Source: Stegostoma tigrinum
Taxonomy: Eukaryota
Reading direction: 5' to 3'
NCBI RefSeq assembly: GCF_030684315.1
Contig: NC_081387.1
Span: forward strand, 16,833,409-16,897,408
Length of the DNA stretch: 64,000 bases
Shown here: positions 16,048-20,933 of the stretch, piece by piece
Numbering within the stretch: position 1 is the stretch's first letter
How the letters are laid out: each line of letters opens with the position of its first letter
Notes under the pieces: model-generated
What the model was told of the DNA's origin: nothing
Databases searched by the model: none
What the model saw: the letters and a program-made list of their open reading frames with translations, nothing else
Translations under genes and position numbers: made by a program

Positions 16048-18912
16048 TCCAGCTCTCCTTCTTAAAAGAAGTTGCCTTGATCTGTCTCATATCTGATTAC
16101 AACTTTCCAACAATCTTTCATTTAATTTCCGTTAGGTCGTCTTGCTGTTGATGATTTCTGAATTATTTTCTCTTCCGAAGTCTTGCCTTCTGTTTGAATG
16201 GATGAGTCACCTCCAGCTGCACTGCATCCTCTTGGCAATGCAGTGTGGCGTTGTGGTAAAGTTATTTGACAAAGGACTAAGAGGCCACTTTAAAACCAAG
16301 GGGTTGAGAGTTCAAATTCGATGGAGCTGGGTCCTGGAATTTCAATTTAAATATTGAAGAATTTGGGCTAAAAGGCTATTCTTGCTCCTGGTGACTACAG
16401 GGTTCTCTGATTGCTGTAAATTCTTCCTCCTTGGACAAGCTTTCTGATGTCCTGCTTACAAATGACCCCCGCCCCATAACAACATAGAGACTCTTCATTG
16501 TCCTCTGGAATGCCCCCAGCATGACAAGTCCTTGTTTCTGTTCTGAGGAAGGTTCACCAGACTTGAAACGTTAACTCTATTCTTTCTTTCACAGAAGCTG
16601 CCAGACTTGCTGAGCTTGTAGAAAAGGCAAATGTGAATAAAACCTTATCTTGCATCAACCTGGGGACACAGGGTATGCCCTGACTGGTCCCCCTACAAAG
16701 TCGTCCCCCACTAGCATCTGACCTGTCCCAGACTCCTCAGTGACCATTCCTGTGGCTATGTCCTATTCCACGAATAGAGTGGAGGTAGTGACACACTGCT
16801 ACATAATAAGGTAGGTGGTCTCAGCGTTCACTCCTGATGCTGTGAAGTCTCTATCCCCATCCAGCACCTTCGGCTAATGCCAGGGAGATGATGGTATGGT
16901 GTTAACATTCCCCGACTAATAATCCAGAGACTACTGCACTGGGGATGTGGTGGGCATAAGTTCAAATCCCACCAGGAAAGCTGCTGGCATTTACCTAATG
17001 AATAAAACATCCAGAGTTGAAACCTATTCTCACTGATGGGGATTGTGAAACTACCATGCATTGTCATAAAAATATCTGATTCATTAATGTCCTTCAGGGA
17101 AGGAAATCTGCCATGATTAACTGGTCTGGCCTATATGTAACTCTACTGCAATCACAACCATATCTGTGATGATTTATTCTGACAATCCTCGGAAGAATGA
17201 ACCAATCTGTCACAGTGGTAACATGACAAATGAGGAATTTCTTACCCTCGGGCCTCAATGAACTGCTGTTGTCATTTGACTCCCTGGCAGTAGGTGGCGA
17301 TGTAGAGTGCCCTTTCTTCAAAGGCTCCTTCACTGATACCCAGGATCCCACAGTGTTGCTGCCAATGTGCCTCTTGGGGTCAATTGTTGCAGCTGGACAT
17401 CCGAAGGCACTTCAAATCTTCAGGCGTGCTTTCCTTCAGAAATTGCTTTGTAAAACTGCTTTGAACTTTTTTCTCTCTCCTGCTACGGTTATAGGGTGAA
17501 ATATATTGCGAATAGTCACACAAAGGTGATACAATCTATGGTTTAACACTTGAGCATGACTCTGTTGTCTTGGTTATCACATTTTATCATTTAAGTCAAC
17601 ATTCAACGGCTATCATTTCTGCTGGAACATAATAAATAGGAAGACTGTTTGAACCCTGCTCCTCCATTCAATATGATCGCCGCTAATCATCCAACTCCGT
17701 CCCCTGTTTCCACTATTCATTATCACTCCCATCTCTTTAGCCCTAAGACCTAACTCTAACTCATTATAATCATAGTCATCTTACATGGAAACAGACGGTC
17801 CAACACATTCATGCCAACCAAGATTCCCAGGCTAAATAGTCCCATTTTCCTGTGTTTGGCCTATATTAGTCTAAACCAATGTTTTGGTTTCAGCTACTTT
17901 CTGTGGCAGAGAATTCTACGAAAAGAAATGTTCTCACCCAGAGAGTGGGGAGCCTATAGAATTCTCATAATTGGCACGATGACCAATGACTATTTGAGGT
18001 TACTTTACCTGGCCCTCATCTACTGGAACTGGGTATCAAAGTCAGGTCCTGTCCAACTTATCGAACCCATAGCAGCTGAGCTCTCTCATGCACAAGGAAA
18101 ATGTCTGTCTTCTGCAGTGTCCTCCTCCTCCTTGGAAGACTGTTCCTGTTCACCCATTTTATCAGCACATTCTCTGATTGCCAGCTCCAATTATTCAGGG
18201 CACACCACACCAGGATATGATACGAATGGAGTACCTCTCAGGGATATATCTATCTCCTTCTTTCTGGGTGAGGATATTTCTCCTCGTGGAATTCTCTTCC
18301 ACAGAAAGCAGCTGAAGCCAGAATGTTGAATGTTTTCAAGAAGGAGATTGAAAAATAACCTCAAACAGTCATTGGTCATTGTGCCACTTATGGATTGTGT
18401 GTTTGTGTTGCAGCTCAAACTGTGGCCTCTATTCATTTTGATTGTATTGGTTTCTGATGACTTGAAAGAAAAGCTCATCTTTGTTAATGTTCAAATGTTT
18501 GCCCATCTATTGCAGTCCTGCAATGGACAGTCACAAAATGTTGGTGTGAAATGAGGCATCAGTGACTCAGAGAGGGTGGTAGGGATGGGATGTGACTAAG
18601 AACAGCTAAGCAGATGATTAACCAGTGACCATAGCAAGGAAGTGGTGGTCGCATATACCAGGAAGTATTGTTGGTCTTCCAGAGCAAGGAGTTGACCCCA
18701 AGTGAATGTTGCAAACTTGCAGAGGTCGACGGCTACATGCTGAGGGATGCACTAAATCTTGGGGCAGCTGCTGCAGAGGTGCAGTGGGGAAAGACCACCA
18801 TGTGACACCTTCCTGTTGAAGGTAAATGGGGGTCTGTTCAGTTACCGGACCCTCCCTGAGTGTCAGATGCATGTACATATAATCTTGTACAAGTGACAAA
18901 TGCCTTTAGTTT

Positions 18913-19519
18913 AACAAGGTGTAGAGCTGGATGAACACAGCAGGCCAAGCAGCATCAGAGGAGCAGGAAAGCTGACGTTTCGGGCCTAGACCCTTCATCA
19001 GAAATTTCTCAGGATGTATTGTAACCTTAAGGGGCCCAATAAGGTTAGAACTTAGACCTTAATAACATCGGGACTGTTTTACACTGGTACTGGCTTGTGT
19101 TCATATTGATTTGAAAGCTTCGGTACTGTGGGACAGCTGGGCAAATCATTCATAACACTCTGGCCAGAGTACTGTAACTTGTTTAAATAGGAACCTTAGA
19201 GATAACACTTCTCTCAATCAATACACTTTATTCATAAAAAGTTATCTATACATACACATTTGCTAAAGCAGTTTGGTTCTAAACAACAGCGTATGAAGAA
19301 AACAGAAGAAACATTGGAGTTTGACTCTATTAAACAAACAAACAAACCAAAGGCATTTGAGATAACAGGAACTGCAGATGCTGGAGAATCCGTGATATCA
19401 AGGGTCTAGGCCCGAAACGCCAGCCTTCCTGCTCCTAAGATGCTGCTTGGCCTGCTGTGTTCCTCCAGCTCTACACCTTGTTATAGCGGATTCTCCAGCA
19501 TTGCCAGTTCCTATTATCT
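18913..19519. mobile_element. Composite Penelope-end insertion containing an inverted copy of flanking DNA; 16-bp TSD
   Basis: TSD caaatgccttt(a/g)gttt at 18897-18912 and 19520-19535; PLE ends at 18913-19004 (-), 19359-19400 (-) and 19400-19519 (+). Confidence 0.8.
18974..19001 (-). ncRNA. Minimal type I hammerhead ribozyme motif (intact consensus)
   Basis: Reverse complement reads ctgatgaagggtctaggcccgaaacgtc. Confidence 0.82.
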
Positions 19520-20933
19520 CAAATGCCTTTGGTTTGTTTGTTGTTTAATAGAGTCCAACTCCAATCTTTGTTCTGTTTTCTTCATACGCTGTTGTTTAGA
19601 CCCAAACTGCTTTAGTAAATGTGTATGTATCGATAATTTTTTTATGAATAAAGTATATTTTTGAAATTAAATAAAAGTAACAGGAGGTATCAGCCATGCT
19701 AGGTATGTGCTATGATACATTGCCAGGGTATGGTAATCCCAAATTGCCAATGTTTTGCCTGTCTTCACCGAGGTTTAAAGACAGTGATGTGTGTTGTCCA
19801 CACGCAGCTCAGGCGAGAGGGTAGAATGAGGCCAGCATCGATTGAGAGAGGCGTTATCTCTTAGGTTCCTATTTAAACAAGTTACAGTACTCTGGCCAGA
19901 GTGTTATGAATGATTTGCCCAGCTGTCCCACAGTACCGAAGCTTTCAAATCAATATGAACACAAGCCAGTACCAATGTAAAACAGTCCCGATGTTATTAA
20001 GGACAAAATTCTAATCTTATTTGGCCCCTTAAGGTCATAATACTTCCCGAGTCTCTTGTAGAATTACACAGTCAGTGTCTCTGTGCCTCTGTCTCTGGGT
20101 CTGTGAAGTTGGTTTCTCCATCTCTCTCTCTCTGTGGACAGTCAACTGGTCTCTACCTCTTGCAATGCTGATCTCCTCAGGAGGACTCAGATGATTCAAG
20201 CCAAGTTCCGAGAAGTTCCAAGAAAGGTCTTCAGGTGAACCCTGTTTTTATACCTTTTAGATGGTATTCTGAAACATTCTATAGTTCAGGCCAGTCAGGG
20301 AGATAGGCTTAATTGTTTGGAAATAGAGTAAATTATTTGGACGGCATGCTACTGCTTCTTGAGTAGCAGGACCCAGTGCCTTTCTGTCTGGACTGTATGT
20401 TGTTTTGAGAATAAGTTGTTGGGGGTGTGTCTGTCCAGAAAAACTGTTGCATTTTACATTGTACTCATGTCATTAGCACGTGGCTGCTGTGTTTGCACTG
20501 TGTTTGGTGTGTGAGTTTTGTTATTTCAGAGTTTTGAGTATTTCAGAGCCCATAATATCAAGCGTGGGCTGAGTTCCTACACTGACTGAGGTCACTACAA
20601 ATGACTTTCCTTCTCAAGCTTGCCTCTTGCCTGAAATATGGTGACCCGCAGGTTAAACCACTACCACTGATCTCTCTTTAATACAAGAGGGACCACAGTG
20701 ACTTTCACATTCTATTTGTGAAAAAAGGAAAATGTATTATACAGAACCAGATCTAAACTGGGGCCCAAAATGCGTTAAACAGCTTTTGTTTTCAATAACT
20801 GTGATAATGTCCGAATGTTTTCACTGCTACTTCTCAATAGACCCTTTGATTTCACTTTCTGCATATCAGCTTTTGACATCAAACTTAAGCTTCATAGCAA
20901 GAAGAAATGTGAGGTCGCATCATAAATTGTTTC

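What the first reader, a model, noticed from the sequence alone, without database searches (positions are those of the whole stretch)
18897..20052. Penelope insertion that captured an inverted copy of its own downstream target DNA
Seen: between the TSD copies (18897-18912, 19520-19535) lie, in order: a minus-strand PLE end with intact hammerhead; about 350 nt (19008-19358) that is the reverse complement of the right flank (19521-19660 plus 19840-20051, skipping about 180 nt); an inverted PLE tail; and a plus-strand PLE end. The result is a ~1-kb imperfect palindrome. Inference: during integration, synthesis folded back onto, or read through into, target-side sequence and then switched back to PLE RNA just upstream of the hammerhead. 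Alternatively, a read-through transcript from the locus was re-inserted at its own site. Either way PLEs appear to generate inverted duplications of host DNA.
Basis: partly seen in the sequence, partly recalled or inferred. Interest (0 to 1): 0.7.

Follow-up and report, generated by a model that had tools for sequence, protein, structure and literature searches.

The report
Penelope insertion mirrors its landing site
A short Penelope-type jumping-gene insertion holds a backwards copy of about 350 bases of the DNA right beside it, and the same layout recurs at other places in this genome; it likely forms when the newly made DNA folds back and copies itself past the insertion point, a repair scar already known from other retroelements.

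Summary
The structure is real and locally templated. 19008-19403 is one reverse-complement copy of the element's last bases, tail, target duplication and right flank (19476-20051), minus 19660-19838; host parts differ at 21 of 351 sites. It is closer to its own flank than to any of 26 family copies, and contigs of one sample span two joints without a difference. The layout recurs at 17 of 205 pattern-selected double-tail loci (about 45-600 bases copied; target duplication kept in 15). Best reading (0.52): the first cDNA end folded back on a 4-nt match, was extended through tail and flank, then joined a second cDNA primed from the other target end. Strong rival (0.33): a later replication U-turn at the finished palindrome; three other loci carry that signature, so the class is mixed. 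Known analogues: R2 snap-back, L1 fold-back inverted duplication. The scan noted this before in this and other genomes. New variant of a known kind; interest 0.4.

The parts
18897..18912 (+). left target-site duplication
   Evidence: 15 of 16 alike to 19520-19535
18913..19005 (-). tail-less PLE end (outer arm), stops just upstream of the hammerhead core; likely a second cDNA primed from the left target end
   Evidence: matches many PLE ends in the window; 0 rare alleles in 90 columns, 5 of 83 differences to the right arm
18974..19001 (-). minimal hammerhead core letters
   Evidence: read from the sequence; no Rfam match
19006..19007 (.). two linker bases at the distal joint; no shared letters if the PLE arm is read to 19005, or part of a 5-nt mini fold-back (19005-19009) with 2 shared letters
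   Evidence: junction print
19008..19219 (-). inverted copy of flank 19839-20051
19220..19359 (-). inverted copy of flank 19520-19659, including a third copy of the target duplication at 19344-19359
19360..19403 (-). inverted copy of the PLE tail and last ~10 bases of the PLE end, continuous with the inverted flank
   Evidence: (I5)
19400..19403 (.). 4-nt microhomology (AAGG) at the centre joint
19400..19483 (+). 5'-truncated PLE end (first cDNA), begins inside hammerhead stem II
19484..19519 (+). PLE tail, about 36 nt
   Evidence: one-sided extension shared with other copies in the window
19520..19535 (+). right target-site duplication
19536..20051 (+). right flank that served as template
   Evidence: only close genome matches are itself and the inverted copy
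19660..19838 (+). flank piece missing from the inverted copy; present in a related organism
   Evidence: single hit in the genome search; contigs of run X1 tile across it
19864..20535 (+). old dispersed repeat of about 670 nt inside the flank, unrelated to the event
   Evidence: about 65-76% to other copies over its length

Best explanation
This is a twin-primed Penelope-like end insertion that holds an inverted copy of its own tail, target duplication and right flank, likely made during integration when the first cDNA end folded back on itself and was extended into the flank. Steps, all inferred except the end product: the endonuclease would cut both strands 16 nt apart; the right 3' end would prime cDNA from the tail to stem II of the hammerhead; its last letters would pair with a 4-nt match about 77 nt back on the same strand; a polymerase (the element's RT or a host repair polymerase, not told apart) would copy tail, target duplication and about 530 nt of flank, losing about 180 nt by a jump or by a later deletion; that end would be joined to a second, tail-less cDNA primed from the left 3' end on another RNA; fill-in from the left would unroll the hairpin.
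For: Shown: the copy crosses the exact tail/target junction, so its template was this locus after priming. It is 178 of 188 alike to its own flank but at most 84% to long matches in 26 family copies. Geometry here fits plain snap-back without any further event: the inner copy starts inside the stretch covered by the right arm, on a 4-nt match. Outer and right arm carry different common variants, and the outer arm reaches about 10 nt further upstream than the right arm, as two separate cDNAs would. Age fits one event: host arms differ at 6.0%, inner and right arm share 0 rare alleles with 5 unshared in 28 columns. Across loci the target duplication, whose left copy lies outside the palindrome, ages with the arms: 2 of 135 mismatches where arms differ by 2% or less, 7 of 83 where they differ by 3% or more (Fisher p 0.03). 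Precedent: snap-back of cDNA 3' ends in R2 insertions (PMC11371274, passages); fold-back, unwinding and end-joining at yeast breaks (PMC11724301, passages); a PLE protein cuts and extends both strands from two start sites that bound the tail (PMC11167929, parts 1-2 of 4).
Against: Plain snap-back cannot give a centre where the inner copy reaches further upstream than the true arm, and that is so in 8 of the first 13 loci tabulated. Three loci (L095, L274, L297) hold both strands' versions of one centre joint, which needs a finished palindrome as template. At L036 and L119 the PLE arms look old (5 of 69 and 5 of 55 rare alleles; 4 of 97 and 6 of 92) while the host arms are 0% and 1.3% apart, which suits a later copy or arm-to-arm correction. 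In this locus the 5 letters at 19005-19009 can be read as the remnant of an ordinary head-to-head joint. The age tests rest on few letters, and mismatches are rarer near the centre than distally (14 of 889 versus 34 of 880), so arm divergence may understate age.
Confidence: 0.52

Rival explanations
1. Two steps: an ordinary head-to-head PLE palindrome was inserted first; later a replication fork or a break at that hairpin made a U-turn, copied the flank backwards and returned near the old centre; the long palindrome then lost part of its centre between the two AAGG sites.
For: L274 keeps a whole ordinary insertion plus an inverted triplication whose first turn is the PLE centre joint; L095 and L297 have the same reciprocal joints; the L095 joint occurs only at that locus, twice. 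Explains centres of either asymmetry, lost outer arms and lost target duplications (L107, L325). Models: template switching at inverted repeats (PMC10766183, search listing only), small inverted triplications (PMC13334657, passages).
Against: For this locus it needs three things together: a turn near the tip, a return at the old joint, and a later centre deletion. No sign of a delay here. In most loci with an outer arm that arm reaches further upstream than the true arm, so they too would need a deletion; outer arms share 0 rare alleles with the inner pair in 8 of 8 loci tested.
Confidence: 0.33
2. The cDNA-bearing right end was replicated, the two sister ends fused head to head, and a break about 530 nt away was joined to the left end.
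For: Gives centres of either asymmetry; proposed for L1 foldbacks (bioRxiv 10.1101/2024.12.14.628481, passages).
Against: Needs a second break within 45-600 nt of the fusion and an intact left target end in 15 of 17 loci; such fusions are described there as making unstable chromosomes.
Confidence: 0.06
3. A read-through RNA (PLE end, tail, flank) from this locus was reverse transcribed back into its own site.
For: The copy includes tail and flank in one piece, as such an RNA would.
Against: No second target duplication bounds the inner piece among the repeats found; the missing 180 nt has no GT-AG ends on either strand; return to the same spot would be needed at 17 loci.
Confidence: 0.03
4. 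Assembly artefact, or a dispersed repeat inserted separately.
For: Part of the flank is an old repeat; no laid contig spans the whole stretch.
Against: Arms differ by 6-7%, unlike a fold-back read chimera; a 300-nt contig (19085-19384) with no difference in each of two runs of one sample spans the skip joint and the flank/tail joint; the first 124 nt of flank have no other strong match.
Confidence: 0.03

Closest known systems
L1 insertions with fold-back inverted duplication of target DNA (PMC10191854, passage; bioRxiv 10.1101/2024.12.14.628481, passages and section 9)
   Same: Short inverted duplication of flank inside a retroelement insertion, target duplication kept, small microhomology, rare (3 alone plus 1 with an internal inversion, 0.3% and 0.1% of events, 52-220 bp, in the first paper).
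   Different: There the copied DNA is on the upstream (reciprocal) end; here it is on the primed end and includes the element's tail and the target junction. Here germline, old, in a PLE. My pattern could only see the tail side, so the side bias is partly ascertainment.
R2 snap-back 5' junctions (PMC11371274, passages)
   Same: cDNA 3' end primes synthesis on its own cDNA or nearby target DNA before the 5' join.
   Different: Engineered, site-specific, somatic; the passages read do not describe a copy running through the 3' junction into flank followed by a second cDNA.
Canonical endonuclease-positive PLE insertions with inverted 5'-truncated pLTR and one-sided tail (PMC8557442 and PMC3846280, passages)
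   Same: Head-to-head arms, 30-40 nt tail on one side, target duplication.
   Different: No inverted copy of the own flank in the passages read; capture of host DNA between pLTRs is described there as unrelated DNA.
Small inverted triplications / template switching at inverted repeats (PMC13334657, passages; PMC10766183, listing only)
   Same: 100-600 nt inverted segment with hairpin joints; L274 has this form.
   Different: The window locus has no flanking triplication of host DNA and is bounded by a retroelement target duplication.

Membership tests
Endonuclease-positive Penelope-like element | linked to an ORF with C-terminal GIY-YIG endonuclease | tested here: met
   The same end closes longer copies (window 20955-22016); a young copy at L255 gives an open frame with Pfam GIY-YIG E 0.0006, 20.5 bits, just under the 22.6 cut-off; the decayed window piece gave no hit.
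Endonuclease-positive Penelope-like element | telomerase-like reverse transcriptase; clade (Penelope/Poseidon or Neptune) | not tested
   No RT-bearing copy was examined.
Endonuclease-positive Penelope-like element | 30-40 nt tail on one side, inverted truncated end, target duplication | tested here: met
   definition from PMC8557442 passages
Endonuclease-positive Penelope-like element | minimal hammerhead in the terminal repeat | tested here: inconclusive
   core letters present; no Rfam match, no fold support
Retroelement-linked fold-back inverted duplication (L1 type) | copy templated by the adjoining flank, target duplication kept | tested here: met
Retroelement-linked fold-back inverted duplication (L1 type) | copy lies on the upstream (reciprocal) end | tested here: not met
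   the copy is of the tail-side flank and includes the tail
Retroelement-linked fold-back inverted duplication (L1 type) | made in the same event as the insertion | tested here: inconclusive
   ages agree at this locus; other loci point both ways
Inverted triplication by template switching | reciprocal turn joints or triplicated host DNA | tested here: not met
   absent at this locus; present at L095, L274, L297

The most novel reading that the evidence does not exclude
Penelope end-stubs, some hundreds of thousands per genome here, are a standing source of short inverted duplications of host DNA by two separable routes: snap-back of the primed cDNA end during integration, and replication U-turns at the palindromes they leave behind. 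The fossil loci record the order of steps of PLE integration (two cDNAs from two RNAs, free and foldable 3' ends, late joining), which has not been resolved in vitro.
Probability: 0.5. Interest if true: 0.6.

Novelty: new variant of a known kind. Interest (0 to 1): 0.4.

Why it matters
The steps after priming in PLE integration are stated as open in PMC11167929. A recurring scar with three copies of the target duplication gives a direct prediction for the in vitro system: free cDNA ends that self-prime and run into the target. It also names a small but steady source of long hairpin-forming palindromes in shark-like genomes, of the order of 100 loci by extrapolation, too rare to shape the genome much.

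Tried and rejected
Unbiased screen: 200 kb from four contigs plus the window held 40 tail ends and no case but the finding itself; 26 repeat-hit loci with 17 tail ends held none. Palindromic-RNA source idea (the centre joint is inherited from an amplified master): exact searches for two centre joints found only the home locus, so no support. Empty-site test with contigs of a related organism: one contig has 7 letters before 19520 that do not align to the tail; letters not shown, a weak hint only. No laid contig covers the joints at 19008 or 19400 in the pieces listed. Rfam and folding gave nothing for the hammerhead. Later insertion of the 180 nt into the flank: disfavoured because the relative has it joined on both sides, not excluded. 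Jump versus later deletion for that gap: no shared letters at the joint, unresolved; L107 shows a similar gap of about 80 nt. Flagged loci dropped before the count of 17: L040, L228 (unrelated inverted repeats), L145, L239 (PLE only), L058, L208 (complex, possible long variants), L255 (copy from 1.1 kb away). One coordinate pair for L088 in the first table was wrong; the search in the same call found the two copies identical.

Full report
Observation. Reverse-complemented, 19008-19403 aligns to 19476-20051 with 374 matches, 30 mismatches and one gap (19660-19838). So the inverted piece is one continuous copy of the last ~10 PLE bases, the tail, the target duplication and the flank; the target duplication is present three times. 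The centre joint has a 4-nt match (19400-19403); the distal joint has two linker bases or a 5-nt mini fold-back.

The element. The same ~90-nt end closes longer copies in the window. A young copy elsewhere (L255) has an open frame with a weak GIY-YIG match (E 0.0006, below the curated cut-off). One-sided tail, inverted truncated end and target duplication are the described PLE layout (PMC8557442, PMC3846280, passages). Clade not tested.

Local origin. A genome search with the flank returns itself, the two inverted pieces (92-93%) and an old repeat family at 71-86% over part of it. Over 19864-20051 the copy is 178 of 188 alike to its flank and at most 84% to long matches in 26 family copies (two 41-42 nt matches reach 90%); copy and flank share a gap of about 30 nt against family copies. 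Two runs of one sample, possibly the source, each have a 300-nt contig over 19085-19384 without a difference. In a relative about 6% away, contigs tile 19523-19666, 19651-19730 and 19716-19913, so the 180 nt belong to the old flank and are missing from the copy. At four sites the copy agrees with the relative against the flank: both arms have drifted.

Recurrence. An inverted tail followed within 60-175 nt by a forward tail occurs 64, 100, 155 and 208 times on the forward strand in four gap ranges, reversed-pattern control 0. I screened 205 such loci (the first listed ones, plus 8 from a tighter pattern): 24 were flagged, 17 are true copies of the own flank. They copy about 45-600 nt; 15 of 17 keep the target duplication; most have a tail-less outer arm, some none. 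Scaled to 527 hits this is about 44 loci with exact motifs; 27 of 40 tails carry the motif exactly, so of the order of 100 in all by inference, against about 460,000 tail ends extrapolated from 264 kb. Events without an inner tail are invisible to this screen.

Mechanism. On the bottom strand the order is flank, target, tail, PLE end (first cDNA), then sense tail, target and flank, then sense PLE end, then the left target. A 3' end that folds back on the 4-nt match and is extended gives the middle part; the last part is the complement of a cDNA primed from the left end. The two PLE arms carry different common variants and the outer one reaches further upstream, as expected of two RNAs; the anole PLE protein cuts and extends both strands from two start sites (PMC11167929). 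Ages agree here: 21 of 351 host mismatches, no shared rare allele between inner and right arm, 1 of 16 in the target copies. Over 16 loci the target copies age with the arms (2 of 135 versus 7 of 83; p 0.03).

Against a single mechanism. In 8 of 13 loci tabulated the inner copy reaches further upstream than the true arm, which plain snap-back cannot give; an aborted join to the second cDNA before folding, or loss of the hairpin tip, could (inference). L095, L274 and L297 carry both strand versions of one centre joint, and L274 keeps a whole ordinary insertion plus a triplicated flank: these need a finished palindrome and read as replication U-turns. L036 and L119 have old-looking PLE arms but near-identical host arms; arm mismatches are fewer near the centre (p 0.003), so later duplication or arm-to-arm correction occurs. 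The class is therefore likely mixed; for this locus I put 0.52 on integration-coupled snap-back and 0.33 on a later U-turn with centre deletion.

Known kinds. L1 insertions with fold-back inverted duplication are described on the upstream end (PMC10191854; bioRxiv 10.1101/2024.12.14.628481); R2 cDNA ends snap back (PMC11371274); yeast breaks give short fold-back insertions (PMC11724301). Three searches of the held library listed no paper whose title or abstract start describes flank capture by PLEs; most subscription papers are not held and no supplements were read. Earlier notes of this scan report the same layout in this and other genomes, with both timings argued; they are unchecked and not counted as support, but one led me to PMC10191854.

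Verdict. Real, locally templated, recurrent, rare; a new variant of a known repair scar, with useful information on PLE integration. Interest 0.4.

Noticed in passing
window 14944-15176 and 36287-36514: Two ~200-bp PLE-end palindromes 21 kb apart share an odd centre in the same orientation but carry the tail on opposite arms; the exact 26-nt centre of the first occurs once in the genome.
   Followed up: partly
window 52705-53209: Two separate PLE-end insertions with their own target duplications; the second is a tail-only arm joined to a tail-less arm.
   Followed up: partly
window 2986-3128: Double-tailed PLE palindrome with no evident target duplication or flank copy; weak 60-nt inverted host match nearby.
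   Followed up: no
window 17877-18392: Several short inverted pieces without this PLE (I6, I7, I9).
   Followed up: no
L255:1160-3855: Young PLE with an open endonuclease frame whose 5' join holds a palindromic copy of DNA from 1.1 kb upstream.
   Followed up: partly
L274:1314-2216: Inverted triplication of flank and tail with the PLE centre joint as first turn.
   Followed up: yes
L234:2476-2508: Centre of the palindrome holds a ~30-nt insert made of repeated bits of the adjoining sequence, like iterative templated insertion.
   Followed up: no
L118:1123-2970: Palindrome with 924-bp arms from another element with hammerhead-like letters at its ends.
   Followed up: no
L007:1337-2568: 409-bp inverted repeat at 94% without this PLE between the arms.
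   Followed up: no
random loci L062-L081 and window: 5' ends of short PLE copies pile up just upstream of the hammerhead core: 21 of 52 matches that do not reach the first bin start at positions 21-30 of the reference end.
   Followed up: no
L096, L099, L052, L060, L101: Many double-tail loci continue past the tail into the start of the PLE frame and rejoin the terminal repeat: short internally deleted units (59 of 149).
   Followed up: partly
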